The notes beneath the pieces are model-generated. The model saw only the letters and a list, made by a program, of their open reading frames with translations. It did not search any database and was not told the origin of the DNA. From positions 10,013 through 74,012 of the forward strand of contig JAHRAO010000018.1 of NCBI GenBank assembly GCA_020027215.1: a DNA stretch of 64,000 nt. The letters run 5' to 3'. Numbering within the stretch: the stretch's first letter is position 1; the number at the start of each line of letters is the position of its first letter. The stretch comes from Gammaproteobacteria bacterium. GTDB taxonomy: Bacteria > Pseudomonadota > Gammaproteobacteria > JABABF01 > JAHRAO01. The position numbers were made by a program, and so were the translations under genes. Positions 8,599 to 64,000 of the stretch are shown here, piece after piece.

Positions 8599-8600
8599 GT

Positions 8601-8677: not shown

Positions 8678-8759
8678 ATTTTCTTCTCTTTCCTCCGCGA
8701 TGAAATAATCAATCCCCTATAGTTTATGTCATAATATCTCCACAATCATTCATTGTGAT

Positions 8760-8836
8760 GGTGAGCGTAGCTCAGATGGTAGAGCACAGGATTGTGGCTC
8801 CTGCGGTCGGGGGTTCGATTCCCCTCGCTCACCCCA
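8760..8836 (+). tRNA. tRNA-His (anticodon GTG) with genomically encoded G-1
   Basis: Acceptor GTGAGCG/CGCTCAC, anticodon stem CAGGA/TCCTG with loop TTGTGGC, T-arm GGGGGTTCGATTCCCC. An extra 5' G opposes discriminator C, as is typical of bacterial tRNA-His. Confidence 0.85.
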
Positions 8837-43983: not shown

Positions 43984-45282
43984 ATGGCAGCGCTCAACGT
44001 CGCCAATAGAACGCTCTTTAATAGAGATAACTTGGATATTTTGCACGGAATCAACGATAGTTGTATTGATCTGATCTATTTAGACCCCCCATTCAATAAA
44101 AAAAAGACTTTCACCGCCCCGATTGGCAGTAGCGCAGAGGGTGCATCGTTCACCGATATTTTTAGACAAGAAGATATTAAGGACGAATGGGTGGATAGTA
44201 TCCGCTATGAAAATCATCAACTGCACGAATATCTAAAAGGAGTGAAGTTCTTTAGCAATCAATATAATTATTGCTACCTCGTTTATATGGCCGTGCGACT
44301 GATGGAATGCCACAGAATACTGAAAAATACGGGTAGCCTTTATCTCCATTGTGATCCGACTATGTCGCACTATCTGAAAATAGTGCTGGATTGTATTTTT
44401 GGAGAGGATAATTTTAGGAATGAAGTTGTTTGGAGCTACAGCACGGGTGGAGTTAGCAAAAGACATTTTGCAAAAAAACACGACATTATTTTGTTTTATT
44501 CTAAAACTTCTAAAAAGTGTTTTAATCAACCGAGAATACCAAGCAAAGATAGCAAAAGATTTAACATACAGGATAATTATGGCAAAATGTATTATGAAAA
44601 AGCTGGCAATCGTTATTACCTAGATGAAGGTGTTGCCATGACTGATGTATGGGATGTTTATCCTGTTAGAAATGTATCAAAAGAACGTACCGGCTACCCC
44701 ACCCAAAAACCGCTTGCTTTATTAGAGCGGATCGTACAAGCGAGTAGCAACAAAGGGGATGTGGTGCTGGACCCTTTTTGTGGTTGCGCCACAACCTGCA
44801 TAGCGGCAGAAAAACTGGAAAGACAATGGATAGGAATAGATGTATCGGTCACGGCGTATGATTTAGTTAGGAAGCGGATGCGCGATGTTTATCCGGACAC
44901 CGAAATGTTCAAGGATTACGGGATTATTTGTCAAACCACCGTGCCCACCCGCACTGCAATGGGTACAGCAGACAGCAGTGGATTTGTTTACGTGATCAAA
45001 AACGCTGCTTGGAAAGCGCGCTACAAAGTCGGTATCGCCAAAGATGTGGGCAAACGATTAAAGAGCTACCAAACATCAGACCCGCATCGGGGTTATGAAT
45101 TAGTGTATAGCCGACAAAGTATTTATTACCGAGAGATAGAAAAATACATCCACAAGCGGTTTGATAGCGACTATGAATGGGTCTTGTGTCGCGATGAACA
45201 GGCGTTAATTGAAGCCATAGAAAAATATAAAAAAGCCCCGTCGTTGCTCAAAGTCGCCGAACAAGATAATGATTATACATAG
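43984..45282 (+). CDS. Beta-class DNA N6-adenine/N4-cytosine methyltransferase fused to a C-terminal T5orf172 (GIY-YIG-like) domain; no adjacent restriction gene
   Basis: Motif IV IYLDPPF (DPPY-type) comes before motif I VVLDPFCGCATT, which is the beta-class order. The C-terminal ~100 aa (GFVYVIKNAAWKARYKVGIAKDVGKRLKSYQTS...YELVY..) matches the T5orf172/MUG113 domain pattern. The RBS AGGGGG sits 5 nt before the ATG. The upstream 170 bp is AT-rich. Confidence 0.75.
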   Translation: MAALNVANRTLFNRDNLDILHGINDSCIDLIYLDPPFNKKKTFTAPIGSSAEGASFTDIFRQEDIKDEWVDSIRYENHQLHEYLKGVKFFSNQYNYCYLVYMAVRLMECHRILKNTGSLYLHCDPTMSHYLKIVLDCIFGEDNFRNEVVWSYSTGGVSKRHFAKKHDIILFYSKTSKKCFNQPRIPSKDSKRFNIQDNYGKMYYEKAGNRYYLDEGVAMTDVWDVYPVRNVSKERTGYPTQKPLALLERIVQASSNKGDVVLDPFCGCATTCIAAEKLERQWIGIDVSVTAYDLVRKRMRDVYPDTEMFKDYGIICQTTVPTRTAMGTADSSGFVYVIKNAAWKARYKVGIAKDVGKRLKSYQTSDPHRGYELVYSRQSIYYREIEKYIHKRFDSDYEWVLCRDEQALIEAIEKYKKAPSLLKVAEQDNDYT

Positions 45283-51364: not shown

Positions 51365-52015
51365 CTATTGTAACAATCTCGTGACGATCTTGTTATCAGA
51401 ATAACTGTGTCTTTGCGAGGAGGGACGGGCTTGGGTGCCATCAACGATCATTGCGTGATGTGAATTGCATACGCTCTGTGGACATTCTGTATTCATTTCA
51501 ATTTTTTGGTGGGCAGTGTGAATGTCTATGGCACCAGAACACAAACATATATAATCACGCTCAGAATCGACTTTCATATACATCATCGTATTCCGCACGG
51601 TCACTTGTGAAATTTTAGATTCCAGCTCCAATATGGAAGCGGTCTCATCGGGACGGACGACATAGGATAATAGTTTACCTTTTTGGATACTCAATTTAGT
51701 TTTTGTCCCCAGTGACGATACGCGTAAATTACTGACCCCGCGCAGTAAAAATGCATTATGCCCTACAGTAAATCCCACTGCCGAATCGGGTTCTTGTATC
51801 GAAATATTAGCATCATGAGCATTAAATGCGCCGGGGGATGCGCGTTCACCATTGATGAACACTTCTCCCTCCAATATTTTTATCGCATCAGGCAAATCTG
51901 CATTTGATCCCAATGCGAAAAGTGGGGAATGATTGAGCACATAAGGATGGGCTTTTGCGACTACAGACAATCCTGTAGCGGCAAAAGCCCAGTGGAGAAA
52001 ATTTCTTCGATCCAC
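51365..52015 (-). CDS. Tat-signal exported hypothetical protein, paralog A (FecR-domain-like beta-rich region, CxC motif)
   Basis: The N-terminus MDRRNFLHWAFAATGLSVVA carries a twin-arginine RRxFL motif. It is a paralog of the next gene (GEVFINGERA../GKVFVNGKLA.., ..NAFLLRGVSNL../..DAFLLRSNSQL.., DYICLCSG/SYLCTCYG). Confidence 0.4.
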   Translation of the reverse strand: MDRRNFLHWAFAATGLSVVAKAHPYVLNHSPLFALGSNADLPDAIKILEGEVFINGERASPGAFNAHDANISIQEPDSAVGFTVGHNAFLLRGVSNLRVSSLGTKTKLSIQKGKLLSYVVRPDETASILELESKISQVTVRNTMMYMKVDSERDYICLCSGAIDIHTAHQKIEMNTECPQSVCNSHHAMIVDGTQARPSSQRHSYSDNKIVTRLLQ

Positions 52016-52019
52016 TAAT

Positions 52020-52757
52020 TTAATAGTCTATCTGACGTGGCGCCTTATAGATATCTGGTTTGATCCCAAACGGTGGCACACGTCCTAATAGCCCTTCAAT
52101 AAGAGCAAGTTCCTGGTCCGTATGATTCTTGAATGGAGCAGATTCTATTTTTCTGCCAGTCGGAGCATCATTGACCAAGTAGCGCGGTTGGTCATGGTAT
52201 TCCGATTCAATGATTTCACGACTATTCGGGTCAGATTGGGAAGCAACTTCCACCATACCATAACATGTGCACAAGTAACTCGCATCGGGATCATTTTCTA
52301 AATAAAAACCAGTACCACGCACCGTCAAACCCCAACCGGCAGTTTGCATATTTAAGGGCTGTTCATTTTCCCCGCGTTTACCGAAAACAGACAACACTTT
52401 TCCCGAAACCACATCGATCTTTTCGACTTCTCCCGATTTTTGTTTCCCTTGGAAAGAGAGCTGGCTATTACTGCGGAGTAAGAATGCATCCTTCCCAACA
52501 GCAAAAACCGCTCCGCTATTTGAACCAGAAGCAACGCTATCATTTGGTCCAATTACCGTACGCTTATTTGCTAATTTGCCATTAACAAAAACTTTACCTT
52601 TAATGTCTTGAAAGGATCTGCCTTTACGCAAAGAAGGTTTGCCATCCGCACCCAATACAATGCGTGGAACAGCCACCGATAAAAGACCCAGAGTCAAAAA
52701 TTTGACTAATACATCCCGTCGGGTCGCAATAAATAAATCTATATCTCTAATTTTCAT
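52020..52757 (-). CDS. Tat-signal-like exported hypothetical protein, paralog B (FecR-domain-like)
   Basis: TRRDVLVKFLTLGLL.. signal-like N-terminus. The conserved blocks shared with paralog A include WGLTVRGTGFYLE, which resembles the FecR-domain signature. Function unknown. Confidence 0.4.
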   Translation of the reverse strand: MKIRDIDLFIATRRDVLVKFLTLGLLSVAVPRIVLGADGKPSLRKGRSFQDIKGKVFVNGKLANKRTVIGPNDSVASGSNSGAVFAVGKDAFLLRSNSQLSFQGKQKSGEVEKIDVVSGKVLSVFGKRGENEQPLNMQTAGWGLTVRGTGFYLENDPDASYLCTCYGMVEVASQSDPNSREIIESEYHDQPRYLVNDAPTGRKIESAPFKNHTDQELALIEGLLGRVPPFGIKPDIYKAPRQIDY

Positions 52758-52945: not shown

Positions 52946-53608
52946 ATGATGTCGGCTAGTCTCCTCTATGTCCTCACTTATTACAAGCGCACCCGCAATA
53001 TGTCCCGTATTTGTCAAATCATGCGGAGCACACCAGAGACAGATACTTTACTGATCTGTAACGGCGATATAAATCGCATTCAATCGTATACATACGATAT
53101 CCCTGTTATTGTGACCGATAACCGCTGGAAAAATTTTCAGCGGCATATCGTCATCCAAAATTTCTTGCGGCACAAAACATACGATCATGTCCTCCTTTTA
53201 GATGATGATGTCATCCCCTCCTTTGAATTACCACATTATTTTTTATCGGGCAGCGCCCCGCATACCATAGTAGGCGGATGGGGGTATCGCATTGATGGTG
53301 ATGATTATACGCGCAGGACCAAAATAGAGGATGGTAGTGAATGTCATTATATGGGGGCGGGAATCACACTTTATCCGAGTGATTTTTACCGCCACCTCAA
53401 TTTAATGAACATTGATGCCAATATGATGGTGATGGATGATATATGGCTAAGTTATATGGCAAAATGCCTCAACTATCGCCTGCTGGGAATGTCATGCCAG
53501 CATTGGCAATTCAAAGGCAATGATGATCGGCATGCCACTTACTTGCGGCTCGGCGAAAATAAAAAGAGAAAGTATTGGCGTGCGCTATTTGTAAATGAAT
53601 CTCACTGA
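52946..53608 (+). CDS. Hypothetical protein with a DXD motif (possible GT-A-like glycosyltransferase)
   Basis: 220 aa containing YDHVLLLDDDVIPS (hydrophobic strand plus DDD) and a later MMVMDDIWLSY. Preceded by a ~190-bp very AT-rich divergent promoter region. The start could be an internal Met. The family is not firmly recognised. Confidence 0.3.
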   Translation: MMSASLLYVLTYYKRTRNMSRICQIMRSTPETDTLLICNGDINRIQSYTYDIPVIVTDNRWKNFQRHIVIQNFLRHKTYDHVLLLDDDVIPSFELPHYFLSGSAPHTIVGGWGYRIDGDDYTRRTKIEDGSECHYMGAGITLYPSDFYRHLNLMNIDANMMVMDDIWLSYMAKCLNYRLLGMSCQHWQFKGNDDRHATYLRLGENKKRKYWRALFVNESH

Positions 53609-55956
53609 GGCGCACCCTGCATAATCCAATTCACCATAAGGTCGTAATTGGCACGATCGCCAACGCGAAGGTTAAATCCACTCCGTATGCCGCCACCATG
53701 ATTTTCGGTTGACGGTTTAATCAAAATTTTACTCCAGCGCGGATATTGAAAATTGACCCATTCTACCGTTGCTTGATAAATCGTCCCTTTATTATCAGGC
53801 TGTTGTTCTGAAAACCATACCGGAATATTAGCGTAAGCAATCTGATTTCCAGGTGTTTTCTGTTGGTGACAGGTCACACATGCATTTGAATCGTCAGCAC
53901 TCGGGTTATTAAATTTAGGATCTAAAATGGATCGGATATGCGATGTAAAGTTCACCGTTGACGGCAAACTATTGTCCACTGTAATACGGTGGGACGCTAT
54001 GGAATCTTGATCGGCATTACCATTACCTACCCGCAATTCTATAGTATATTCACCTGGAATACTAGTTTCTAAAGAAGCGAGCACGCTATCTGCATTACGC
54101 AGAGCAACATCACCTGCAGTCGCATTCGTCGGCATACTCCGCACAGTCCATTGGTATTGTTTGGCAAATTGACTGCCAATACCATTAAGGGTCACTGGTG
54201 ATGCGGCATGACGATCCGGACCTGGATCGGAAATGGGACGACCTGGAAGTAGTATATTCCCCGTTGCACCGCGGCGAGTAAAGTTTGGAATAGCCGCCGC
54301 CAAAAGTTCTAATTTGCGCGGGTCGCCAAATAAACGGTTGTAGTTTAATCCAGATAACGGCATAATACCTAAATCAAAGATATAGCTTTGGAGCTGTTCT
54401 CCATAAGAGATAAAATCTTGGTAATTTGATAAATCCACCACCGGATTGAATCGGCGTCCTTCCGCTTCACCAGGCCAACTACTTCCTCGTCCGGCATGAC
54501 AAACATGGCAATTAGGACCAACCACTTCACGGAAAATTTCCTCCGCTATCAATGGGGGGTCGTTGTCTAATGGGTCATGCCTCCATCCGCTCGGGATAAA
54601 ATCTTCCCTATAGTATGCGGAGGGAAAATTAACACCTCCATACCATCCCTCCACGAGTTCGCGTAGCAAATCGCCTTGCCAATATCCATCATTGGCGCGT
54701 GGTTGACCATAGTTGACCATTCGACCATTATGTTCACGCATACATATCTGTTTATCATTTGTCCCGGGGTAGGTACAATACAGCATGATATTCATCCTTT
54801 TAATCATTGCCTCTTGCGCCGTCTTAGTATAAGCGGATATATTTTCGGAAAAAATCAAATCAACAACTTCTAAAGGCTGTAATAACGCTTTTGTATCACC
54901 GTTATTACGGTAAATAAAACCACTGATGGCATTCGTGGCAGTGGAACGCACCAGTGGTTGCGTCAGTCCGTTATGACAAACAATACATGGGCCGGGCATG
55001 GATTTAGCACCGCGACCATCTAAATCCACGACAAGTAGCCTATTGCCCGCCGGATCAAAAGTATAGAACTGGGCAAAACGCGTTCCATCAGGGGCTTTAC
55101 TAAATTCAATTGCATTCGTCCCCACTAAATAACGCCGATCATCCATAATTGCCGCTTCTAAACTCAATGCATTGCCATATTCCGCAGGAGATATCGCACC
55201 TTGGGTTTCGGTGCGCACTAAGTAATTGCCGACAAAGACCGACAAAGATTCGTTTCCGCTGCTGGTACCAGGATTTTGACGCATAAACATATTACGACCA
55301 TAACCCAAATCTCTTGCATCGCGAAAAATAATATGTGCATCGTGTCCTTCATCAAATCCATTGACTTTTTTCCAATCCTCCAAAGTGGTGCGCGTATTGC
55401 TCGGGTCAATAGTTTGATAATACGCCCGAGCGTGGAGTTCGTAATCTATCAATGAACGTTGTAACAACAAGCGATTATTTTCTGCCGTCGCGCGCATTCT
55501 ACCGTGTTCATCAAAAAAATAAAAACTATAGTTATTGGTCGGTGACGTTGCCAAAGATGCGCTCAATCCGCCGGGGCGAGAAACCATAATGGGATAACAA
55601 TTGTCGTTAGATCCCACCACAAAACTGCCACTCGGTAACTGGCAATTACTGCGTTGCATTACGGTTGGGCTACTTCCTGTCAATTCAACGCGTACTGACA
55701 TATTGTTTGCCGCTGCCATGCGCAAGAGTAAAGTATACCGCCCCGCTGGCAAACCGCGTTGCTGATTTACTAGCTGTAAATACTCATTTGGGCCACTCCG
55801 ATCAACCGACGGTAACCCTTGCAGCACTTGTAATTGATCGGTGACTTGGTTATTGTCACCCCCACACCCCGCAACGAACAATAACATCAAAAAGATATGC
55901 CGTTGAATATAAGGGGTCCGGCGAAATAATAAGTGATACAACATTTTTTTTACCAT
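53602..55956 (-). CDS. Large lipoprotein with three c-type heme-binding CXXCH motifs (putative triheme cytochrome c)
   Basis: Signal peptide with lipobox LLFVAGCGG. CIVCH, CHVCH and CVTCH were each verified on the DNA. Only 10 Cys occur in 784 aa, and 6 of them are in CXXCH motifs. Candidate distal Met ligands are IMP/RMNIM. The start lies 5 nt after the upstream OMP stop. Confidence 0.55.
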   Translation of the reverse strand: MVKKMLYHLLFRRTPYIQRHIFLMLLFVAGCGGDNNQVTDQLQVLQGLPSVDRSGPNEYLQLVNQQRGLPAGRYTLLLRMAAANNMSVRVELTGSSPTVMQRSNCQLPSGSFVVGSNDNCYPIMVSRPGGLSASLATSPTNNYSFYFFDEHGRMRATAENNRLLLQRSLIDYELHARAYYQTIDPSNTRTTLEDWKKVNGFDEGHDAHIIFRDARDLGYGRNMFMRQNPGTSSGNESLSVFVGNYLVRTETQGAISPAEYGNALSLEAAIMDDRRYLVGTNAIEFSKAPDGTRFAQFYTFDPAGNRLLVVDLDGRGAKSMPGPCIVCHNGLTQPLVRSTATNAISGFIYRNNGDTKALLQPLEVVDLIFSENISAYTKTAQEAMIKRMNIMLYCTYPGTNDKQICMREHNGRMVNYGQPRANDGYWQGDLLRELVEGWYGGVNFPSAYYREDFIPSGWRHDPLDNDPPLIAEEIFREVVGPNCHVCHAGRGSSWPGEAEGRRFNPVVDLSNYQDFISYGEQLQSYIFDLGIMPLSGLNYNRLFGDPRKLELLAAAIPNFTRRGATGNILLPGRPISDPGPDRHAASPVTLNGIGSQFAKQYQWTVRSMPTNATAGDVALRNADSVLASLETSIPGEYTIELRVGNGNADQDSIASHRITVDNSLPSTVNFTSHIRSILDPKFNNPSADDSNACVTCHQQKTPGNQIAYANIPVWFSEQQPDNKGTIYQATVEWVNFQYPRWSKILIKPSTENHGGGIRSGFNLRVGDRANYDLMVNWIMQGAPQ

Positions 55957-55961
55957 AAAAC

Positions 55962-56843
55962 TTAAAAAATACTGGTGAAAGTCATGCGATAAAGCAAGCG
56001 TTCATAGCGATTACCTCCATCCGCCCTCACCTGCACCGTACGAGCAGATAAATCTAAAGAGCGTTTGTTATTATGGAACGCCATAACACCTCCCAAGGAA
56101 AACACATGCGTATCACCTTTCAAACGGTAAGCAAATTGGTTTTCCTGTGATCCACCAAACACTTCATCTGGTTCTATTGCGCGGGCATTATTAATCACAT
56201 TTAATGGCGCAATACCACTTGAAGTCGTATCGCCCGTGAGAAACCTGTAATTAGTATAGAGCAAGAAATTATTACTCAATTGAAAATCAAAATTAGTAAA
56301 TAGCCCAGTGTTAATCGTATCAAATGTCTCACCTTTTGCTTCACGTTGGCGGTAGTCAATCCCCGCAAAAAAAGATGTGCGCAGTGATAATGGCGAGAGC
56401 ATTTGCATGCCGTAAATATAGGTCGTTGAATCGCGCCTATCGGAAAACACATCATCCTCTACGACGCGTACAAAAAGTTGATAACGGTTGGAAAAGGGAC
56501 CGAGGGAACGTGCAAAATGTAATGCCAATTTTGTCTCGTATTCATATTCGCTTAATTCGTTAAAATGCCTGAAATCTGTGTAAGCCACTTTTCCATGGAG
56601 GGTCACAAACACCTTGTGGCTAATATTTTTTGCCAAATTGACTTGCATGTTGGCCGTGTTCAATATATCCTCACGGCGAATATCTGATTTTTCTGCCGTA
56701 TTGACATTATTATCCAACACAGCGGATAGGCCAAAAAAACCTGAAAAGCCATCCAAGAAATCAGCGTTTGCCGTCACGGAATAGCAACACAATACAAAGC
56801 CGATCCATATCGGGCGACAGGCATATGCCATCACCTTAATCAT
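55962..56843 (-). CDS. Predicted outer-membrane beta-barrel protein (small OMP, family unassigned)
   Basis: Signal peptide ..IWIGFVLCCYSVTANA followed by alternating amphipathic beta-strand-like segments and a C-terminal ...RMTFTSIF ending in Phe, as is typical of OMPs. The start is chosen at the Met forming an ATGA overlap with the adhesin stop. The ORF track begins at 56861. Confidence 0.45.
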   Translation of the reverse strand: MIKVMAYACRPIWIGFVLCCYSVTANADFLDGFSGFFGLSAVLDNNVNTAEKSDIRREDILNTANMQVNLAKNISHKVFVTLHGKVAYTDFRHFNELSEYEYETKLALHFARSLGPFSNRYQLFVRVVEDDVFSDRRDSTTYIYGMQMLSPLSLRTSFFAGIDYRQREAKGETFDTINTGLFTNFDFQLSNNFLLYTNYRFLTGDTTSSGIAPLNVINNARAIEPDEVFGGSQENQFAYRLKGDTHVFSLGGVMAFHNNKRSLDLSARTVQVRADGGNRYERLLYRMTFTSIF

Positions 56844-59800
56844 TGGTTTATGAATCTGCATAATTTTATCTTTCTTGCAATTATAAGATATATTTTAACC
56901 CCAACCAGCAATAAGAGCAAGTATAATATTATCTGCCCGATTGCCCCGCCGCGCGCGAGAATCGGGGTGGGAGGAATTACTTTCTGTGGGAGTGCCAATT
57001 TTATAGTCGTTTCCAGCACCCCATTCGCCATGCGATCATCATCGTAGATCCCTCCATCACGCAACGATATCCTCACACATCGGCTTGAACCGTGTAAACC
57101 TAACACGTATGCGCTACTGCCCGGGGGGGGACATCCTCTTGTCGAATCGCCAATAATACTCGCAAACTGGGTGCCGCTTGCCGCATTCGCGACCACCGAC
57201 TGCCACATACCAGCACGACGATTATATCTCCGCCACTGCGCATCAGAAGTCAAGCCAATAGGCAATTCAAATATTATACCAATATCCTGTCCAGGCATAG
57301 CTCGATTGACAACAAAAGAATATATAGCACTGATATCAACAAATTTACTGTCCGTCACGATAGCGGTACTGGTCACCATATCCCCATTTTCTCCACCAAA
57401 TTGTGCAATTTGGTGGTAAGTAACGCCAACACCTCCTGAAATAGTGCTACCAGCTAAAGCAATTGCACTCGGTTGTAACACCAATCCCGGCATAGTTTCA
57501 ATTAAGTAAGGGGGGGAACTGTTCGGATAAACATGCATCACATGCATAGGGAGGGATGAGTGTTGCGTCACAGTACTCGCTCGCCACACGCTTGCAATAT
57601 CGGTGCGCATGGGGGGAGCGCCATTATCGGTGATAGTGACGGCCAAACGATAGAGCCTGTGGGGAATCAGATTGCGCGCATCAAAGCTAAACATGCGTAC
57701 CGAAGACATTGGGGCAGCAAAAGAAGCATCACTCCCTCGCCAACTGATATTCTGTTGGTTATCTGCATTGGGATCTCTAATGTTGAGGAGCACCGACACT
57801 GGCGTTGTACTGATCGGAATAACATTATTGGATAACAACACTCCGTCTTGCCGCAAATCAAACCAAGCCGTTGACGGAAAATTGTCTTCAATAATAGAAA
57901 TCCTATGGTCGCGATTACCGCGCAAGGTTGCCCCTATAGCGGACTGCAAACGCACAACTATTGTCTCTTCTCCTTCTTGTACATCATCATTACATATCGA
58001 AAAATTAATCGCGGCGCTGGTTTGGCCTTGAGTAATCATAGTATTACGGAAAGAAGGGAGCACAACATCCACTCCAGAGGCACAACTATCGCCGACCATT
58101 GCCGTGCCTGACACAGTATAAGTCACAGTGACAGGATAGAACGGGGTCACGCCATTCAGTATGAATTGGATTGTGCCCGTACTGCCCTCTCCCAATACTT
58201 GATTATTTCCCACTTCCACAATGGGAATAATATAAATCGTCTGGTTAATAGTACTTTCAACGGGTTGGCTTATACCTTCAAATGTCGCCCGCCAAGTAAT
58301 AATATGCCGTCCAGTAGTTAAACTCAGGCTCACCGCGGGCGCAAAGACCGTTAAAGATTGACTAGTATTAAATAATTGTGCGCTCGGCCGTTCTAAAGCA
58401 CTCAGTGGAGTTAGTCGTCCAACCGCTGCAATGATTTGTTGCATTTGAGATAGCTGCCATACCACAGCATATCCCGGCAATTGATCCATAAAATATTCAT
58501 TTGCATTAGGTAATAAATCGCCATCTAAATCTTCCAAAGCATCCGATATACCGTCATTATCACTGTCTGCGTTGAGTGGGTTTAATCCATAAATAATTTC
58601 CCATTCATTGGGCAATCCATCGTTATCGCTATCATGTGGTAAGGTTATTACCACTTGGATCGTTGATGATGAGCGCGCACCATCTTCGTCAGAAATGGTG
58701 TAATGCATTACTTCTGGTTGTTGGGGTAAAGTCACTTGACGACAGAGCGGAATATAATGGATACTATTGGTCTCTGTATCAATAGTGATTGTGGCTGAAG
58801 CCTGAATCGGAGTCACCTGTACAATGTCTAAGAATTGATTCTCACTATCAAAATCATTACGTTGTGGCATAAATCGGTTGATTACAGGCGGAGTTTCACA
58901 CGAACTAATTACTGAAAAATAATCAGGATACGCCACTGGCGTATCGTTCACTGGGTTCACTTCAATATCATAAAATTGATTGGAGATGGTATCGTTTGCG
59001 CCATCCCGTACCAGATAAATAAACTTATCACTGGTCGTCTCGCTACCATCGTGCCGATAACTCACCATGCCTGCGTCTAACATGGCTTGCGAAAATTGAG
59101 TGACGCGCTCGTCAGGGGTATCCGCCTTGATCAGTCGCCCATAAGATGGTTCTTGGACAATATTGTAAAGGATCTGGGAAACAGGGTGATCATTATCCGC
59201 CACCGATAAACTCATTGAAGTGAGCACTGCCTCACTTCCCTCATCCAAGACCAATGTTCCGGTAGAAACAATGTGGGGTACATCATTGACATCGCGAATA
59301 TTAATTTGCAAAGATAGAGGCAGAGAAACAGTTGCACCATCATAAACTGTGAGATTAAATGATGTCGTGCGAATTGGCGGATTGGGGTTTTCACTGCCAT
59401 CATGCACATAACGCAACCGTTGATCAATCCCCATCATATCGCGCATCAAATCATCATTGACATCTTCTTGCGAAAAAATATCTCCCGTCCCCAAAAAACC
59501 GTGCTCTAACATCAGCACTCCATATTGCGGTGTGCTGATGAGCGTATAAATAATATCAAAATCTAATGGTCCGTCGCGATCGATTAAACGCAGGACATTA
59601 TCATCAATCGCAACGACCCCGCCTTCGTCCACCCATATGGTTGCAGTGACAATAGTGGGGGTGGTATTATTAGAATCAATGATTGCAACAAGTGTTTGAG
59701 TGACCACCATAGCGGGCGCATCTGTGTCGTGTACTGCATAGAGGATTTCATCCCGCCCGTTAGAAGCATCCCCGCGCGGTATATGGTGATTGTAAACAAT

Positions 59801-62800
59801 ATTTCCATCATTGAGCGCCTTTTGGGTAAAGGTTGATCCAGAAGCCATTATTGACGAGGTAAATATGTTCAGTAAATCACCTTCTTCGGGTAATTCTGCC
59901 ACTTGGTACACTATTTCTTCGGGCGGGTTATCTACATCTATCCACGATAAGTTCGCGGTTGTAACAGTGACGCTCGTATTGATGACAGGAAGTACTAATG
60001 AAAGCAGACCCTGTCGTTCTTCAGGAATATCATTAATGGGTGTGATTTCTATATTCACCGTATATTGCGGCGACTCTAATCCTTCGTTATCGCTTACCAC
60101 AAAACGAAAGTTATCGGTACCCGAGGTATGGTTTTGCGGCGGGTAATTAGGCTGAGGGTGATAATACAGTACGTACTCCCCATTATTATTGAGGAAGTAC
60201 TGCCCACTGGTGTCAATGGACACACCGTTATTGTCCGCTAAGGTACCGTTAGTTGGGCTACTTGTCAAGCGCACGCGCAAAGAAGTTCCTATATCTTCTA
60301 CATCGGCGCCGCGCAAAACAATTTGCACCGAACTATCTTCCACCACGACCACGTTCGCACTAGACGGAAGCAAGTTCCCCACCCCCGCCACAGGCGTACT
60401 ATCATTAATGGCAACACTCGGAGTATCATTAATCGGTTGAATCATGAGTGTCACTGTGGTCGGTAGTGAACTAGAGACGAAGTCATTCGCCACAAAAGTC
60501 GCAGTATCTTGACCGTTTTCATGAAGATTGGTAGTATAGGTTAGAGTGGCCACTCCGGCGACAAAGGAACCGGTAGTCGGCACTATAGTACCCTTTAAAG
60601 GTGCTGATAATATTTCATAAGACAAGGCATCGCCATCAACATCCATTGCGCGAAGAGTAATCGTGCTGGATGTATCTTCATCCAGCATTACTTGAACAGG
60701 AGTAGCGGTTGGGGTGTCATTGACGGGGATAATGGTTACGGATAAGGATGCCGGAAGCGAATCTGTGCTGCCATCATTGATTGTATAAGTAATGGTCGTC
60801 AATCCAAAAAAATTCGGCGGTGGTCGATAATGGACAATAAAGGTCGCGCTTGTGATACTGTCGCCTTGTAACATTCCACTCGTCGCAGAAAACATGGCAC
60901 CCGGCGGCGATGAACGCAATAGCCACGACAAAGGATCGCCATCACTATCGCTCCCGCGCACCGTGAGGGGGATTAATGTATCTTCAAGTCCCATAAAACT
61001 ATCGGAAATAGCGAGTGGTCTGTCTGGTTGATTATAGACAATAAAATTGATTGTGGGGCGGAGTAAAGTGCCGTATTGAAAGACAAAATTGTCCAGTCCG
61101 CGAAAATGAGCCCTTGGGCGATAGTTCAGCGTGGCAATACCATCAATAAAATTGATTGCACTCCCTACACCGAGCATATTTCCCGCCATCATTAAATTAC
61201 CAGAACTGAGTTGTATGATAGTGCCCGTAGTCGTACCGCTCAATGGCAATCTGATATCTACAGTAAAATCGACATCGGTATCTTCGTTTAATAATACGGT
61301 CACCGTCGGTGTAGTCGGTAAGTCGGCAATCGGCGTGACTGCTATACTAATCGTATGAGGAGATGATTGTAATAAGCTATTCACATTATAGGCAATAAAA
61401 TTGATTTGGTCTGACCCATTGTAATTAGGATGCGGCCTATAAAGACTACCAGTGAGTGAACCGTTTTGCGGCACGGAAGTAAATATAAAAGCTATATTAC
61501 CAGCATCAACATTGGTCGTAACCGATTCTAAAGACAATTGTAAGTCAATTACCCCATCTTCATTGACAGCGGTAATCAAATCGGCACTCGATGGCGGGTC
61601 TGCAGCATCATGCACCATAATGGTCACCGTAACTGCGGTAGAGAATGTTCCGCCAGAATCGCTTACCCGATATGCTAGCGTTTCCATGCCGACAAAATGA
61701 GCAGCAGGAGTATACAATAAAGATAATTGCCGCAACGCCACATGCGTAGCAGAAAAAGTAGCGGTCGTTCCAGCGGCAAGTGTCCCAGGTGTTCCCATTA
61801 AGCTTAAAGTGCCACTGGATGGCACACTGATCAATTCTACATAACCATCACTCAATCCCTCTCTATCCTGTGCATTGATGACCACTAACGCTGTCGTATC
61901 TTCTAATACATGGATAATCGTTGCATTTTGGGTCGAAGTCCCCACACCAGTTATTGGCGCATCAGGAACTGGATGGACGGTAAAGAATACTTGCGCCTCG
62001 GCAGAAGTAAAAGTGCCGTCATGCACCGCGTAAGTCATAAAATCTAAGCCAAAAAAGTGGGGGGATGGGGTATATTGAATGTTTGGCAAACTAGGAATGA
62101 TAGAACCATGGCGGGGTGGCGTAATAATCCGGTATGTGAGTGCATCACCATCTACATCACTCCCCCCTTGTAAAATGAAATTGGCAACCGTATCTTCCTG
62201 TAAGGGAACCTGAATTTGTGGAGCAGTCGGAAGATCATCCACCGGATTAATGAAAACGGTGACTGAACTTTCTCCCAGACTAAATGTTTGGGTGGCGACT
62301 TCAAATTGTATATTCCACGAATCGCTCCCATTGTAATTAGGAAGAGGCGTGTAGGTCAGGACATTGCTGGTTGTACAACCTATACCGACCAAAGAACCCA
62401 TACTGGTGATACTGCCTGAAGTGGGCAATAATGTGACACAAACCCGTGCAGTTGCGGCATTGAAAGTGATAGTGAGCGAACTATCCTCATTGAGCGTAAA
62501 AGTAGAGGTGGCTATGCTGAAGTTCGCCGTACTCACATCAGTATGAAAAAAGGTGGGGGTCGATAACGGAGCAACATCTATCTGTAACACACGGAACGTG
62601 ATAGTTGCTGTTGCGGATAAAACATTTTTATCATCCATTACTCGGAACAGCGCGGTGGTGTCGCCGACAAAATCAGGAGGCGCAAAATAATGTAAGGGAG
62701 AAGAAGTGCCCGTATACATGTTTGTCCTAAAATTGAAACTCGGGCGCATAGTGAGAGTACTCCCGATACTAAATGGCATTCCTTGATACAAAAATACACC

Positions 62801-64000
62801 TGTGGAGGGTAATGCTGTTATTTGTAACACAGCCGAGTTGCTGTCCACATCTGCACTGCTCAGCGTAAACTGGGCAGTCGTCCCTTGCGCTACTGCAATA
62901 GTGGAATCATTGGCAATGGGAGGAGCATTATTGATGGTAATATGCACGGTTGCAGGTGCAGACATTGCTCCATCTGCATCATGGACGCGAAAGGTAAAAT
63001 GCGCCGTGGTTTGTGTCCCTGTCGGAGTGTATAACACTTGATTATTCTGCACTGGAGACAAGATGCCCGCTGTTGGGGGAGTAACAATCGTAAAAAACAG
63101 ATCGGTCATGGTGTGATCGGCATCGGAGGCAGCAAGAGTAATCACTGTAGGTACTGCCGCTACCAAAACTGCAGAAACGGGCGTAGCAACGGGTGGGTCA
63201 TTGACGGGGAGGATAAGCACCGTATTGATGACAGTAGTATCTCCGCCGTCAGGATCACGGATATTGACGCGCAATGTATCGCTACCAAAAAATTGAGCAT
63301 TCGGGGTGTATTGCACGCCTATAGTCGCGATACCACTTGTATTGACAGTAAAGGCGGTGGAAGTCAACATCGCCATACCATTTGTGGGTGCCGTAACGAT
63401 TTGGGGGATCAATAAAGTGCTATCTATGTCCCGTAACCGATAATAAAATGACAGATTACTATCCTCTTCACCGCGCACAGGAAAAGTAGTCAATATTTGC
63501 TGTGTGCCACTAACCACAAAAGATTCAATAAACATCGGCGGGTCATTGACTGATTGGACAGTCACCATCAAGGTAATATTCGATGAGCACCCTGCATCAA
63601 TTCCGGTGCCAATTCCACTATCGCATACTCGTATCATCGCGCGAGCGCTACCCGTGAAATGATCTGGTGGACGGTAGCGTAAAGGCAATTGTGTACTGAT
63701 TGTTCCAGATGAGAGAGTGAGCACATGAATAAATAATGCCCCCGTTGTGCTGTCAATATCGTCAACGTGCAAGTCGCTCAGAGTCAACTCCAATACACTA
63801 TCTTCAAGAATGGTACGCGTTATTGTCATTTCCGTCGAAACGGGAAGATCATTGACGGCAACAACTTGAATCATCACGGTCGCCACCGGGGTCAAAAATC
63901 CATCAATACCATTAGACACGCGGAAGGTAAAACTATCGTTACCGTGGTAATTTGCATCGGGGCTATAGTGCAATGTGCGCCGCCCATTGGTTAAAAGGCC
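56840..64000 (-). CDS. Giant cadherin-like/VCBS-repeat adhesin (partial; N-terminus beyond window end), with thrombospondin-type-3-like Ca-binding repeats and a C-terminal hydrophobic helix plus basic tail
   Basis: Over 2377 aa of ~100-aa beta repeats, each ending in a VNDxP/INDTP/VNDLP motif (e.g. VAVNDLPV, VNDPPMF, PVNDPPVA, VNDTPTA, INDTPSV), with DSDNDG repeats near the C-terminal region. The tail reads ...PPTPILARGGAIGQIILYLLLLLVGVKIYLIIARKIKLCRFINQ. The reading frame runs to the window edge. Confidence 0.7.
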   Translation of the reverse strand, partial: GLLTNGRRTLHYSPDANYHGNDSFTFRVSNGIDGFLTPVATVMIQVVAVNDLPVSTEMTITRTILEDSVLELTLSDLHVDDIDSTTGALFIHVLTLSSGTISTQLPLRYRPPDHFTGSARAMIRVCDSGIGTGIDAGCSSNITLMVTVQSVNDPPMFIESFVVSGTQQILTTFPVRGEEDSNLSFYYRLRDIDSTLLIPQIVTAPTNGMAMLTSTAFTVNTSGIATIGVQYTPNAQFFGSDTLRVNIRDPDGGDTTVINTVLILPVNDPPVATPVSAVLVAAVPTVITLAASDADHTMTDLFFTIVTPPTAGILSPVQNNQVLYTPTGTQTTAHFTFRVHDADGAMSAPATVHITINNAPPIANDSTIAVAQGTTAQFTLSSADVDSNSAVLQITALPSTGVFLYQGMPFSIGSTLTMRPSFNFRTNMYTGTSSPLHYFAPPDFVGDTTALFRVMDDKNVLSATATITFRVLQIDVAPLSTPTFFHTDVSTANFSIATSTFTLNEDSSLTITFNAATARVCVTLLPTSGSITSMGSLVGIGCTTSNVLTYTPLPNYNGSDSWNIQFEVATQTFSLGESSVTVFINPVDDLPTAPQIQVPLQEDTVANFILQGGSDVDGDALTYRIITPPRHGSIIPSLPNIQYTPSPHFFGLDFMTYAVHDGTFTSAEAQVFFTVHPVPDAPITGVGTSTQNATIIHVLEDTTALVVINAQDREGLSDGYVELISVPSSGTLSLMGTPGTLAAGTTATFSATHVALRQLSLLYTPAAHFVGMETLAYRVSDSGGTFSTAVTVTIMVHDAADPPSSADLITAVNEDGVIDLQLSLESVTTNVDAGNIAFIFTSVPQNGSLTGSLYRPHPNYNGSDQINFIAYNVNSLLQSSPHTISIAVTPIADLPTTPTVTVLLNEDTDVDFTVDIRLPLSGTTTGTIIQLSSGNLMMAGNMLGVGSAINFIDGIATLNYRPRAHFRGLDNFVFQYGTLLRPTINFIVYNQPDRPLAISDSFMGLEDTLIPLTVRGSDSDGDPLSWLLRSSPPGAMFSATSGMLQGDSITSATFIVHYRPPPNFFGLTTITYTINDGSTDSLPASLSVTIIPVNDTPTATPVQVMLDEDTSSTITLRAMDVDGDALSYEILSAPLKGTIVPTTGSFVAGVATLTYTTNLHENGQDTATFVANDFVSSSLPTTVTLMIQPINDTPSVAINDSTPVAGVGNLLPSSANVVVVEDSSVQIVLRGADVEDIGTSLRVRLTSSPTNGTLADNNGVSIDTSGQYFLNNNGEYVLYYHPQPNYPPQNHTSGTDNFRFVVSDNEGLESPQYTVNIEITPINDIPEERQGLLSLVLPVINTSVTVTTANLSWIDVDNPPEEIVYQVAELPEEGDLLNIFTSSIMASGSTFTQKALNDGNIVYNHHIPRGDASNGRDEILYAVHDTDAPAMVVTQTLVAIIDSNNTTPTIVTATIWVDEGGVVAIDDNVLRLIDRDGPLDFDIIYTLISTPQYGVLMLEHGFLGTGDIFSQEDVNDDLMRDMMGIDQRLRYVHDGSENPNPPIRTTSFNLTVYDGATVSLPLSLQINIRDVNDVPHIVSTGTLVLDEGSEAVLTSMSLSVADNDHPVSQILYNIVQEPSYGRLIKADTPDERVTQFSQAMLDAGMVSYRHDGSETTSDKFIYLVRDGANDTISNQFYDIEVNPVNDTPVAYPDYFSVISSCETPPVINRFMPQRNDFDSENQFLDIVQVTPIQASATITIDTETNSIHYIPLCRQVTLPQQPEVMHYTISDEDGARSSSTIQVVITLPHDSDNDGLPNEWEIIYGLNPLNADSDNDGISDALEDLDGDLLPNANEYFMDQLPGYAVVWQLSQMQQIIAAVGRLTPLSALERPSAQLFNTSQSLTVFAPAVSLSLTTGRHIITWRATFEGISQPVESTINQTIYIIPIVEVGNNQVLGEGSTGTIQFILNGVTPFYPVTVTYTVSGTAMVGDSCASGVDVVLPSFRNTMITQGQTSAAINFSICNDDVQEGEETIVVRLQSAIGATLRGNRDHRISIIEDNFPSTAWFDLRQDGVLLSNNVIPISTTPVSVLLNIRDPNADNQQNISWRGSDASFAAPMSSVRMFSFDARNLIPHRLYRLAVTITDNGAPPMRTDIASVWRASTVTQHSSLPMHVMHVYPNSSPPYLIETMPGLVLQPSAIALAGSTISGGVGVTYHQIAQFGGENGDMVTSTAIVTDSKFVDISAIYSFVVNRAMPGQDIGIIFELPIGLTSDAQWRRYNRRAGMWQSVVANAASGTQFASIIGDSTRGCPPPGSSAYVLGLHGSSRCVRISLRDGGIYDDDRMANGVLETTIKLALPQKVIPPTPILARGGAIGQIILYLLLLLVGVKIYLIIARKIKLCRFINQ

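What the first reader, a model, noticed from the sequence alone, without database searches (positions are those of the whole stretch)
53602..64000. Tightly coupled operon: giant cadherin/VCBS adhesin, small OM beta-barrel, triheme cytochrome c lipoprotein
Three minus-strand genes are packed head to tail. The adhesin stop and the OMP start share ATGA at 56840-56843. The OMP stop and the cytochrome lipoprotein start are 5 nt apart. The strong implication is a single transcript and a functional module.

Giant RTX-like adhesins normally sit with type I secretion genes (ABC/MFP/TolC) or a cognate protease, and none is present here. Instead the partners are a 299-aa predicted beta-barrel and a 784-aa lipoprotein with three verified CXXCH sites.

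I do not recognise an adhesin + small OMP + multiheme lipoprotein module as a described system. It could represent a surface redox/attachment apparatus, for example electron transfer to or from a substrate the adhesin binds, or heme-dependent processing of the adhesin.
Basis: partly seen in the sequence, partly recalled or inferred. Interest (0 to 1): 0.75.

Follow-up and report, generated by a model that had tools for sequence, protein, structure and literature searches.

The report
Conserved cytochrome-adhesin outer-membrane gene module
The three overlapping genes are real and form a cassette conserved in more than 60 mostly gammaproteobacterial genomes: a giant Ig-repeat surface fibre that in relatives carries one haem at its tip, a small 12-stranded outer-membrane barrel, and a three-haem lipoprotein. 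Held-library searches found no description of it, and it fits none of the known adhesin or cytochrome systems I tested.

Summary
**Observation:** confirmed. The adhesin stop and OMP start share ATGA, and 5 nt separate the OMP stop from the cytochrome start. The adhesin runs off the window.

**Conservation:** of 75 homologous loci with enough upstream DNA, 69 have the barrel directly upstream of the cytochrome. 63 also have the adhesin.

**New findings:**
- The adhesin is not RTX/T1SS-type. It has a GlyGly-CTERM-like sorting tail, and a rhombosortase lies nearby in the closest relatives.
- 46 of 49 full-length homologous adhesins carry one N-terminal CXXCH.
- The OMP models as a 12-stranded barrel. 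About 12% of the top 150 family representatives are fused to the C-terminus of a long protein. In the betaproteobacterial ones scanned, the barrel follows a true autotransporter domain.
- All three CXXCH sites and the lipobox Cys are invariant in the cytochrome family. Outside a PKD domain, its fold has no PDB match.
- A fourth gene, a Tat-signal FecR-like Cys/His protein at 52020-52757, flanks 36 of 42 complete loci. It is often paired with a CHASE2 nucleotide cyclase.

**Function:** not shown. My best reading is an outer-membrane complex for surface redox exchange or sensing. The barrel is too small for an Mtr-type conduit.

**Verdict:** apparently undescribed.

The parts
56840..64000 (-). 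Giant Ig/cadherin-repeat adhesin, C-terminal 2386 aa only. The gene continues beyond the window edge.
   Evidence: The reading frame is open to 64000. Pfam finds Big_9 x12, Cadherin_3 x4, Cadherin_4 x6 and Cadherin_5 x6; NCBIfam tandem-95 repeat scores 328 bits. There are no RTX repeats and no CXXCH in the part present.
56843..58483 (-). Conserved C-terminal module of the adhesin (residues 1840-2386 of the visible part). It is the region shared by adhesins of 63 homologous loci.
   Evidence: An HMM built from six adhesin C-termini gives domain i-E-values of 1.6e-106 and 1.8e-84 in the window, and hits upstream of the OMP in 63 of 75 loci.
58568..58633 (-). Bacterial thrombospondin type-3 (TSP3) repeat within the conserved C-terminal module.
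   Evidence: Pfam TSP3_bac, E 0.0017, below the curated cutoff, so a weak hit. Coordinates.
57002..57085 (-). 'Choice-of-anchor U'-like motif (RDGGIYDDDRMANGV). The family consensus is DGGPNDxDGxxNGxxxDPGG, and it precedes the sorting tail.
   Evidence: NCBIfam NF041766, E 0.0018, below cutoff. The motif was seen in nearly all of about 70 homolog tails.
56843..56953 (-). C-terminal tripartite sorting-signal-like tail: RGG, then a hydrophobic helix, then ARKIK (GlyGly-CTERM-like).
   Evidence: Sequence, with the same architecture across about 70 homolog tails. A rhombosortase (TIGR03902, 125.7 bits) is adjacent in L002, and a Rhomboid-family gene sits in the same position in L001. The GlyGly-CTERM HMMs do NOT hit the window tail.
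55962..56861 (-). Small outer-membrane protein, a 12-stranded beta-barrel (299 aa, or 293 aa from the ATG at 56843). The signal peptide ends in ANA|D and the C-terminal residue is F.
56136..56213 (-). Long conserved loop between strands 9 and 10 of the barrel (family consensus AIExDxAF; window AIEPDEVFGG). By strand parity it is extracellular.
   Evidence: AF2 secondary structure. E230 is invariant among the six closest homologs and D232 is conserved in 90% or more of 37. The extracellular assignment is my inference.
53602..55956 (-). Triheme c-type cytochrome lipoprotein (784 aa).
   Evidence: 651 or more homologs. C31 and the three CXXCH sites are conserved: eight of the nine Cys/His positions are invariant in 41 sequences and C693 is conserved in 90% or more; M532 (MPL) and H753 are also invariant. 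AF2 pLDDT 79.6, pTM 0.81. The only PDB fold match is the PKD domain.
55864..55875 (-). Lipobox V-A-G-C31, followed by a low-confidence tether of about 24 residues.
   Evidence: pLDDT below 50 for residues 28-54. By eye the homologs have a tether of about 17-24 aa; my regex parsed only 13 of 41.
54973..54987 (-). Haem-binding site 1, CIVCH (residues 324-328).
54496..54510 (-). Haem-binding site 2, CHVCH (residues 483-487).
53866..53880 (-). Haem-binding site 3, CVTCH (residues 693-697).
53971..54219 (-). PKD (Ig-like) domain inside the cytochrome.
52020..52757 (-). Fourth conserved component: a 245-aa protein with a Tat-like signal (RRDVLVKFL), a weak FecR-like domain, and invariant C163-x-C165, H188 and H212.
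   Evidence: 44-50% identity to neighbours of the module in L001-L004. Present next to the module in 36 of 42 complete loci. Invariant residues, and the RR motif in 43 of 47 sequences. Pfam FecR E 0.0015, below cutoff.
51365..52015 (-). Divergent paralog (216 aa) of the 245-aa protein. It also has an RR signal and a YICLC motif.
   Evidence: BLASTP to L001_216 gives 1.4e-17, and it also matches the 241-246-aa family.

Best explanation
The genes encode parts of one outer-membrane assembly that places c-type haems at the cell surface next to a long adhesive fibre.

**Shown**
- The adhesin, barrel and cytochrome genes are translationally coupled here and co-inherited across gamma- and some betaproteobacteria.
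- The barrel models with 12 strands.
- The cytochrome is a lipoprotein with three conserved haem sites.
- Homologous adhesins carry one haem motif after their signal peptide.
- Homologous adhesins end either in a rhombosortase-type sorting tail or, in the betaproteobacterial proteins scanned, in an autotransporter barrel that is fused directly to this barrel family.

**Inferred mechanism**
1. The fibre is exported by Sec and haem is attached in the periplasm by the cytochrome c maturation system.
2. The fibre is held in the inner membrane by its C-terminal helix, released by rhombosortase, and moved to the surface.
3. The small barrel is not the fibre's translocator, because the autotransporter versions scanned already have their own. 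It is the constant partner of the lipoprotein.
4. The barrel most likely assembles around the lipoprotein's flexible N-terminal tether of about 20 residues, or otherwise docks it. This would display or fix the triheme cytochrome at the base of the fibre.
5. Electrons are then exchanged over short range between a periplasmic partner and whatever the fibre or cytochrome contacts outside. The Tat-exported Cys2His2 protein at 52020-52757 is the candidate periplasmic partner.

The flux is probably low, suited to surface redox chemistry or signalling rather than bulk respiration.
For: **Coupling:**

**Conservation**
- 69 of 75 loci have OMP-cytochrome and 63 of 75 also have the adhesin, with unrelated flanks.
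- The barrel stays with the cytochrome in loci that lack the conserved adhesin C-terminal module (L012, L070, L071).

**Adhesin-barrel fusions**
- Six in-frame fusions in genome loci.
- 18 of the top 150 barrel-family representatives have the barrel at the C-terminus of an 800-2209-aa protein.
- The betaproteobacterial forms scanned are signal peptide + haem motif + Ig repeats + PF03797 autotransporter domain (E 1e-44 to 1e-48) + this barrel.

**Adhesin haem:** 46 of 49 full-length homologs have one CXXCH near the N-terminus. Two more have CX3-4CH.

**Sorting tail and rhombosortase:**

**Barrel**
- 12 strands.
- Some homologs carry an N-terminal FimV_core domain (64.9-73.6 bits in the two full-length examples, cutoff 43.45). 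I take this to be a LysM-like peptidoglycan-binding motif, which would suit an anchoring role.

**Cytochrome**
- Invariant haem sites, an MP motif and C31.
- A disordered tether after the lipid-modified Cys.
- A PKD domain, which I know mainly from surface proteins.

**Fourth gene:** Tat motif and invariant C-x-C/H/H. It flanks 36 of 42 complete loci.

**Related pairing:** a distant barrel homolog is followed by a secreted protein with a cupredoxin-type H...CxxHxxM motif, so this barrel family may pair with redox proteins more generally. This is a single case.
Against: - No experiment or expression data are available.
- The window lacks the adhesin N-terminus, so the haem on this particular adhesin is unverified.
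- The adhesin haem is at the N-terminus. On an extended fibre of 12-30 Ig domains this is tens of nanometres from the membrane, too far for electron hopping to the lipoprotein.
- Many cytochrome homologs have Asp or Glu at position +2 after the lipid-modified Cys. Under E. coli rules this means inner-membrane retention. The window protein has Gly at +2.
- No curated GlyGly-CTERM model matches the window tail, and no rhombosortase is present in the 64 kb.
- The carriers named in the record titles (Alcanivorax, Oleispira, Moraxellaceae) are, to my knowledge, mostly aerobic heterotrophs with no obvious need for extracellular electron exchange.
- Threading of the tether through the barrel is pure analogy.
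Confidence: 0.4

Rival explanations
1. Trans-envelope sensory device. The surface haems report the extracellular redox state, oxygen or surface contact. The signal passes through the barrel and lipoprotein to the periplasmic FecR-like Cys/His protein, which modulates a membrane CHASE2 nucleotide cyclase. This would resemble FecA-FecR signalling with a cyclase output instead of a sigma factor.
For: - The FecR-like protein is nearly core to the module (36 of 42 complete loci).
- In 24 loci it is immediately followed by a 743-aa CHASE2 + class III cyclase gene.
- Only four haems, in separate domains, suit sensing better than bulk conduction.
- The invariant C-x-C, H and H residues suggest a redox- or metal-sensitive centre.
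Against: - The window itself, and most loci, have no adjacent CHASE2 cyclase.
- The FecR Pfam hit is below the curated threshold.
- No evidence of contact between the FecR-like protein and the cytochrome.
- Tat export with a Cys/His centre fits an electron carrier equally well.
Confidence: 0.2
2. Bulk extracellular electron-transfer conduit. This would be a compact porin-cytochrome system moving respiratory electrons to or from minerals, humics or partner cells, with the adhesin holding the substrate.
For: - An OM barrel, a lipoprotein cytochrome and a haem-bearing surface protein lie in one operon.
- The third haem domain has a weak, non-significant profile hit to the Fe(II) oxidase FoxE (E 0.14).
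- Some carriers are, to my knowledge, sulfur-oxidising symbionts (the Olavius Gamma 3 and Galathealinum symbionts), and Thiotrichaceae also appear.
Against: - The barrel has 12 strands. I judge the lumen too narrow to house a cytochrome; MtrB has 26 strands (figure quoted in 10.1101/2022.05.06.490989).
- Three haems spread over 784 aa in separate domains, with no periplasmic multihaem partner in the conserved set.
- No hit above threshold to Mtr/Omc families.
- MtrB_PioB matches 1 of 37 barrels, at E 0.005.
Confidence: 0.15
3. The cytochrome is an enzyme rather than a wire. It could be a peroxidase, an oxidase or a MauG-like maturase. It would act on the adhesin (cross-linking or processing) or on a small molecule admitted by the 12-stranded channel.
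For: - The large non-haem core (residues about 170-320) has invariant polar motifs (FRDxKDLGYGR, NAIEF), suggestive of an active site.
- Its fold has no PDB match.
- The closest barrel folds include substrate-specific channels: KdgM, NanC, Tsx and COG4313.
- Six 'orphan' cytochrome paralogs occur without barrel or adhesin, so the protein can work alone.
Against: - No similarity to CCP/MauG, TsdA, SoxAX or other haem enzymes in Pfam, NCBIfam or PDB.
- Conservation of a haem on the adhesin itself points to electron exchange between the two proteins.
Confidence: 0.12
4. The barrel serves only the adhesin, as its anchor or secretion pore. The cytochrome would be an unrelated periplasmic, inner-membrane-tethered electron carrier that merely shares the operon.
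For: - Recurrent adhesin-barrel fusions.
- The FimV_core extension on some barrels, which I read as peptidoglycan-binding.
- Asp/Glu at +2 in many cytochrome homologs.
Against: - The barrel-cytochrome pair persists without the conserved adhesin module (L012, L070, L071).
- The autotransporter versions scanned already have their own translocator and still keep this barrel plus the cytochrome.
- The order and overlaps are conserved in 63 loci with differing flanks.
Confidence: 0.08

Closest known systems
Porin-cytochrome conduits (MtrCAB of Shewanella, PioAB/MtoAB, fused Cyc2)
   Same: An outer-membrane beta-barrel is encoded with c-type cytochromes, one of them a lipoprotein (as MtrC is). The products are surface-directed.
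   Different: - The barrel here has 12 strands, against 26 for MtrB, so I judge it cannot enclose a cytochrome.
- There are only 3+1 haems, in separated class-I-like domains, not a packed deca-haem wire.
- No family-level sequence match.
Slam (surface lipoprotein assembly modulator, PF04575) with its adjacent surface lipoprotein
   Same: An OM barrel gene sits directly next to the gene of a lipoprotein that may be surface displayed. Three of 37 barrel homologs give weak SlipAM hits (best 2.8e-5).
   Different: - The window protein gives no Pfam hit.
- 12 strands, not the 14 I recall for Slam.
- No N-terminal TPR domain.
- The lipoprotein is a cytochrome, not a TbpB-like handle-barrel protein.
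RcsF threaded through OmpA/OmpC/OmpF (lipoprotein tether inside a barrel)
   Same: The lipoprotein has a disordered N-terminal tether of about 17-24 residues, paired with a small barrel.
   Different: There is no homology. Threading is an analogy I propose, not a result.
Type Va autotransporter adhesins
   Different: - In the window the adhesin and the barrel are separate proteins.
- The barrel family is distinct from PF03797. In the betaproteobacterial proteins scanned it occurs in addition to the autotransporter barrel.
GlyGly-CTERM / rhombosortase substrates (e.g. VesB of Vibrio cholerae; PMC3237569, PMC6219818)
   Same: Tripartite C-terminal tail: Gly/Ser-rich motif, hydrophobic helix, basic residues. 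A rhombosortase is encoded next to the module in L002 and a Rhomboid-family gene in L001.
   Different: - The curated GlyGly-CTERM models do not match the window tail.
- No rhombosortase in the window.
- Known substrates are mostly enzymes, not 2000+ aa haem-bearing fibres with a dedicated barrel.
RTX/LapA-type giant adhesins with T1SS
   Same: Giant tandem Ig/cadherin-like repeats, presumably for adhesion.
   Different: - No RTX nonapeptides.
- No T1SS genes found in the scanned ORFs.
- A Sec signal peptide and a C-terminal membrane-anchor tail in homologs.

Membership tests
RTX / T1SS giant adhesin (LapA, BpfA type) | C-terminal RTX nonapeptide repeats (GGxGxD) | tested here: not met
   0 GGxGxD in 2386 aa. 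Pfam returned no RTX-type repeat family at E<=0.1.
RTX / T1SS giant adhesin (LapA, BpfA type) | Adjacent ABC transporter, MFP and TolC-like genes | tested here: not met
   None was found among the 24 larger window ORFs scanned. None recurs in 85 homologous loci. The DNA upstream of 64000 is unseen.
Porin-cytochrome conduit (MtrAB/PioAB type) | Large (about 26-strand) porin able to enclose a multihaem cytochrome | tested here: not met
Porin-cytochrome conduit (MtrAB/PioAB type) | Periplasmic or surface deca-haem-type cytochrome with closely packed haems | tested here: not met
   Three CXXCH in 784 aa, 159 and 210 residues apart. The Cytochrome_C7 and MtrC hits are below threshold.
Slam (PF04575 / DUF560) | Match to the SlipAM model, with an N-terminal TPR domain | tested here: not met
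   The window OMP has no Pfam hit. Only 3 of 37 homologs hit SlipAM weakly. The protein is signal peptide plus barrel only.
Slam (PF04575 / DUF560) | Gene adjacent to its lipoprotein substrate | tested here: met
   The barrel lies directly upstream of the lipoprotein cytochrome in 69 of 75 loci. This is a functional analogy only.
GlyGly-CTERM / rhombosortase system | C-terminal Gly/Ser-rich motif + hydrophobic helix + basic cluster | tested here: met
   The window tail is RGG-AIGQIILYLLLLLVGVKIYLII-ARKIK. The same architecture is seen across about 70 homolog tails.
GlyGly-CTERM / rhombosortase system | Match to a curated GlyGly-CTERM model | tested here: not met
   No hit for the window tail at E<=10. 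Only weak MprA_tail hits for the L001 and L002 tails.
GlyGly-CTERM / rhombosortase system | Rhombosortase (TIGR03902) in the same genome | tested here: inconclusive
   Present next to the module in L002 (125.7 bits, cutoff 84), with a Rhomboid-family gene in the same position in L001. Absent from the 64-kb window. The rest of the genome is not available.
Type Va autotransporter | Passenger and PF03797 beta-domain in one polypeptide | tested here: not met
   The window adhesin ends in a TM/basic tail and a stop codon, and the OMP has no PF03797 hit. The feature is met in betaproteobacterial relatives.
EpsL (TIGR03014, XrtB/PEP-CTERM-associated OMP) | Full-length match above the curated cutoff | tested here: not met
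   20 bits against a cutoff of 275, and only the N-terminal 90 residues align.
c-type cytochrome | Conserved CXXCH with an export signal | tested here: met
   Three CXXCH sites conserved in 41 homologs (C693 in 90% or more, the other eight Cys/His invariant), plus a signal peptide and lipobox. Many homologs carry PF13442 or PF00034.
c-type cytochrome | Covalently bound haem demonstrated | not testable with these tools
   Needs haem staining or mass spectrometry.

The most novel reading that the evidence does not exclude
This is a previously unrecognised kind of envelope machine. A fibre up to about 100 nm long carries a single c-type haem at its distal tip. It is rooted beside a dedicated 12-stranded barrel that displays a triheme lipoprotein. 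Together they act as a trans-envelope redox or contact sensor, or possibly a cell-to-cell 'redox handshake' in which the tip haem of one cell docks on the surface cytochrome of another. The output would go through a Tat-exported Cys2His2 FecR-like protein to CHASE2 nucleotide cyclases. In the betaproteobacterial versions scanned, this would also mean that a haem-loaded passenger is exported by a type Va autotransporter fused to a second barrel.
Probability: 0.2. Interest if true: 0.9.

Novelty: categorically new. Interest (0 to 1): 0.72.

Why it matters
**Scale.** The module is not a one-off.
- 143 of 156 pattern-matched stretches in a scan of 185,579 species-representative genomes encode a relative of the cytochrome.
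- More than 650 cytochrome clusters (at 90% identity) and about 1400 barrel representatives (at 50% identity) exist.
- The barrel has no hit at all in Pfam or NCBIfam above threshold, and the cytochrome has only sub-threshold hits.

**Carriers.** Going by the record titles and my own knowledge of these taxa, it occurs in ecologically important marine and soil Gammaproteobacteria. These include oil degraders (Alcanivoracaceae, Oleispira, Bermanella), Moraxellaceae and sulfur-oxidising symbionts.

**If the proteins form a surface complex, it would:**
- add a new way for mostly aerobic bacteria to expose haems outside the cell;
- link adhesion to redox chemistry or second-messenger signalling;
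- define a new client for a small OM barrel, namely a lipoprotein cytochrome;
- raise a secretion puzzle of how a haem-loaded 1000-3000-aa protein crosses the outer membrane, through rhombosortase sorting or, in betaproteobacteria, through an autotransporter.

Cultivable carriers exist, so all of this is directly testable.

Tried and rejected
**Systems considered and rejected**
- T1SS/RTX adhesin: no RTX repeats and no T1SS genes.
- MtrB/PioB-type porin: the strand count is wrong.
- Slam and EpsL membership: only sub-threshold or partial hits.
- Fatty-acid cis/trans isomerase (a haem protein of similar size): only an E 0.047 hit, in one adhesin N-terminus, and none in the cytochrome.
- FoxE similarity: E 0.14, not significant.
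- AupA/AupB alkane-uptake pair of Marinobacter, considered because of the oil-degrader distribution: it is FadL-like with no haem, so unrelated.
- Uet cluster of Ca. Tenderia: different proteins and a 28-strand barrel.

**Searches that led nowhere**
- Exact-sequence lookups of the cytochrome (window translation and P0001) found no contig on record. The OMP lookup gave only a 3.3-kb contig, so the adhesin N-terminus of this organism could not be read.
- The organism could not be named. The cluster members carry no informative names.
- The afdb50 fold library was unavailable.
- The barrel profile has no PDB sequence hit.
- The promoter and terminator scan was at background level.
- Six literature searches found no description of the module.

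Full report
**1. Observation**

The minus strand of 53602-64000 carries three ORFs:
- a 784-aa protein at 53602-55956;
- a 299-aa protein at 55962-56861;
- a very large ORF ending at 56840.

- The large ORF's TGA (56842-56840) overlaps an ATG (56843-56841), giving ATGA. A second in-frame ATG lies at 56861.
- The 299-aa ORF ends in TAA, followed by 5 nt and the ATG at 55956.

The large ORF has no stop between its listed TTG start and the window edge. It is therefore truncated by the window, and only its C-terminal 2386 residues are visible.

Its domains are Big_9, Cadherin_3/4/5 and the NCBIfam 'tandem-95 repeat', with a weak TSP3 repeat. It contains no RTX nonapeptide and no CXXCH in the visible part.

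The 784-aa protein has a lipobox (VAG-C31) and three CXXCH sites.

The other window ORFs I scanned are housekeeping or general genes: GlnRS, CysRS, MutL, an AddAB-like helicase-nuclease pair, a TonB-dependent receptor, and glucose-6-phosphate dehydrogenase with a dihydroxy-acid/6-phosphogluconate dehydratase-family protein. None is a T1SS gene.

**2. Is the association real?**

The cytochrome has more than 650 homologs. I inspected five loci by protein lookup, at 33-41% identity and in unrelated flanks. All show the same order: Ig-repeat adhesin, a protein of 259-299 aa, then the cytochrome.

A scan of species-representative genomes gave 79 further loci. They are mostly Gammaproteobacteria:
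- Moraxellaceae, Alcanivoracaceae, Oleispira and Bermanella;
- Litoribacillus, Litoribrevibacter and Permianibacter;
- HTCC5015, the Olavius Gamma 3 symbiont and Thiotrichaceae;
- a few Burkholderiales.

I searched these loci with HMMs built from the barrel, the cytochrome and the adhesin C-terminus.

| Loci with at least 2.5 kb upstream of the cytochrome | Count |
|---|---|
| Total | 75 |
| Barrel homolog directly upstream of the cytochrome | 69 |
| Conserved adhesin C-terminal module upstream of the barrel as well | 63 |

Six loci, two of them titled Thiotrichaceae, carry the cytochrome alone. There it follows genes I read, from their N-terminal sequences, as tsaD-bioH-bioC.

A barrel homolog found independently (P0124) sits in the same module.

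**3. The adhesin**

All homologous adhesins share a C-terminal module of about 550 aa. It ends in this order:
1. the motif DGGPNDxDGxxNGxxxDPGG, a weak 'choice-of-anchor U' hit;
2. a linker of 20-30 aa;
3. a Gly/Ser-rich motif;
4. a hydrophobic helix of about 18 residues;
5. a basic cluster.

The window protein ends RGG-AIGQIILYLLLLLVGVKIYLII-ARKIKLCRFINQ. This is the tripartite architecture described for GlyGly-CTERM signals (PMC6219818, abstract seen).

In the two closest relatives a Rhomboid-family gene lies two genes upstream of the adhesin. The L002 copy scores as a bona fide rhombosortase (TIGR03902, 125.7 bits, cutoff 84). However, the curated GlyGly-CTERM HMMs do not match the window tail, and the window has no rhombosortase. 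Membership is therefore unproven.

At the other end, 46 of 49 full-length homologs have exactly one CXXCH shortly after the signal peptide. Two more have CX3-4CH. Two N-terminal types exist:
- a class-I-like type, VTYxGTxGV...CTxCH...MP...W..G, with weak Cytochrome_CBB3 and c550/c551 hits;
- a GYSGNPS...CxSCH type.

So the 'adhesin' is itself a monohaem cytochrome in its relatives. This cannot be checked for the window protein.

**4. The barrel**

- AlphaFold2 with 19 sequences gives pLDDT 85 and 12 strands, with a long conserved loop between strands 9 and 10.
- All 78 homologs end in F or W.
- The window protein has no Pfam family. Among 37 homologs the only recurrent weak hits are OMP_b-brl (4) and SlipAM (3).
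- A full HMM search finds 1445 representatives at 50% identity.

Eighteen of the top 150 representatives are proteins of 800-2209 aa with the barrel at the extreme C-terminus. These come in two kinds.
- In gammaproteobacteria the adhesin tail reads in frame into the barrel. In most cases the tail's helix and basic cluster are followed by the barrel's own signal peptide, so the product could be processed into two proteins. In Oleispira only one hydrophobic segment lies between them.
- In the betaproteobacterial proteins examined the architecture is signal peptide, haem motif, Ig repeats, a genuine autotransporter beta-domain (PF03797, E 1e-44 to 1e-48 in the three scanned), then this barrel. 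That gives two barrels in one polypeptide.

The autotransporter versions already have a translocator, and the barrel-cytochrome pair survives without the conserved adhesin module (L012, L070, L071). The barrel is therefore best seen as the constant partner of the cytochrome, placed next to the fibre's base.

A subset of barrels has an N-terminal FimV_core domain. I take this to be a LysM-like peptidoglycan-binding motif, which would be consistent with an anchoring role.

**5. The cytochrome**

- In 41 homologs the lipobox Cys, eight of the nine Cys/His of the three CXXCH sites, M532 (MPL) and H753 are invariant. C693 is conserved in 90% or more.
- AF2 gives pLDDT 79.6 and pTM 0.81.
- The only PDB fold or sequence match is a PKD domain at residues about 580-660.
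- The N-terminal beta-sandwich, the alpha/beta core with motifs FRDxKDLGYGR and NAIEF, and the haem domains have no solved relative.
- After the lipid-modified Cys there is a low-confidence tether of about 17-24 residues.
- Many homologs have Asp or Glu at +2, so inner- versus outer-membrane placement is uncertain. The window protein has Gly at +2.

**6. Further conserved genes**

The 245-aa ORF at 52020-52757 is 44-50% identical to genes flanking the module in L001-L004. It is present in 36 of 42 loci with complete flanks.

It has a twin-arginine motif (43 of 47 sequences) and invariant C163-x-C165, H188 and H212. Its FecR hit is only weak. The 216-aa ORF at 51365-52015 is a diverged paralog.

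Unbiased clustering of all ORFs from 85 loci found only one other recurrent neighbour. This is a 743-aa CHASE2 + class III nucleotide cyclase, in 24 loci, always beside the 245-aa homolog. It is absent from the window.

A distant barrel homolog (P0139) is followed by a secreted protein with a cupredoxin-type H...CxxHxxM motif.

**7. Interpretation**

What is established:
- a conserved cassette of adhesin-cytochrome, 12-stranded barrel and triheme lipoprotein, usually with a Tat-exported Cys/His protein;
- recurrent fusion between the fibre and the barrel.

What is inferred is that the three proteins form an outer-membrane complex that places haems at the surface for short-range redox exchange or sensing.

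I give this 0.4. The rivals are:
- a sensory device signalling to CHASE2 cyclases (0.2);
- a bulk electron-transfer conduit (0.15), disfavoured by the 12-stranded barrel and sparse haems;
- an enzymatic role for the cytochrome (0.12);
- a barrel that serves only the adhesin (0.08).

The main difficulties for my reading:
- The adhesin haem is at the distal tip of the fibre.
- The membrane location of the lipoprotein is untested.
- Nothing is known experimentally.

**8. Comparison and novelty**

The module fails the defining features of every system I tested:
- T1SS/RTX adhesins;
- Mtr-type porin-cytochrome conduits;
- Slam;
- EpsL;
- autotransporters, in the case of the window proteins.

It resembles GlyGly-CTERM substrates only in architecture. 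Six full-text literature searches found no description. I also examined and excluded AupAB and the Tenderia Uet cluster.

I therefore rate it as a new kind of envelope module built from familiar part types. The caveat is that its function is still unknown.

Noticed in passing
window 52946-53608 (+): A 220-aa ORF convergent with the cytochrome gene, overlapping its 3' end by 7 nt. It has no Pfam or NCBIfam hit and no homolog in any of the 88 loci. It contains an LLLDDDV motif and lies in the lowest-GC stretch of the window (0.41). In the closest relatives (L001, L002) this position holds a gene of about 1514-1524 aa with InlB B-repeat and weak FG-GAP hits, so it looks like a replacement or insertion.
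   Followed up: partly
L032:2126-4351(-) and 23 other loci: A 743-aa CHASE2 + adenylate/guanylate cyclase gene always lies next to the homolog of the 245-aa FecR-like protein. This suggests the module is coupled to cyclic-nucleotide signalling in about a third of the loci. It is absent from the window.
   Followed up: partly
L077:5142-9737(+); proteins P0236, P0278 and, by junction sequence, others: Betaproteobacterial relatives are two-barrel polypeptides: signal peptide, one haem motif, Ig repeats, a PF03797 autotransporter beta-domain, then the small-barrel family. A haem-bearing autotransporter passenger fused to a second barrel seems unusual in itself.
   Followed up: partly
L086:8001-9691(+): A distant homolog of the barrel (P0139) is followed by a 224-aa secreted protein with a cupredoxin-like H...CxxHxxM copper-site motif. 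This hints that the barrel family pairs with other redox proteins.
   Followed up: no
proteins P0145, P0150, P0122: Some barrel homologs carry an N-terminal extension of about 200 aa with a FimV_core domain (TIGR03505, above cutoff), which I take to be a LysM-like peptidoglycan-binding motif.
   Followed up: partly
protein P0231 (1028 aa): A single database protein in which the barrel reads in frame into the cytochrome, with the cytochrome's own signal peptide and lipobox retained. It could be a real fusion or a lost stop codon or sequencing error.
   Followed up: no
L018, L021, L022, L024, L026, L083: 'Orphan' copies of the triheme cytochrome occur without barrel or adhesin. They always follow genes I read from sequence as tsaD-bioH-bioC. 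Two of the six records are titled Thiotrichaceae.
   Followed up: partly
window 43984-45282 (+): An N6/N4 DNA methylase fused to a T5orf172/MUG113 domain, sitting just upstream of mutL.
   Followed up: no
window 8522-8836 (+): A tRNA cluster of Pro(TGG), Arg(TCT) and His(GTG).
   Followed up: no
L063, L066 (Oleispira MAGs): In these in-frame adhesin-barrel fusions only one hydrophobic segment lies between the two parts. It may serve both as the adhesin's tail helix and as the barrel's signal peptide, with a possible internal Met start. How such a precursor is processed is unclear.
   Followed up: no
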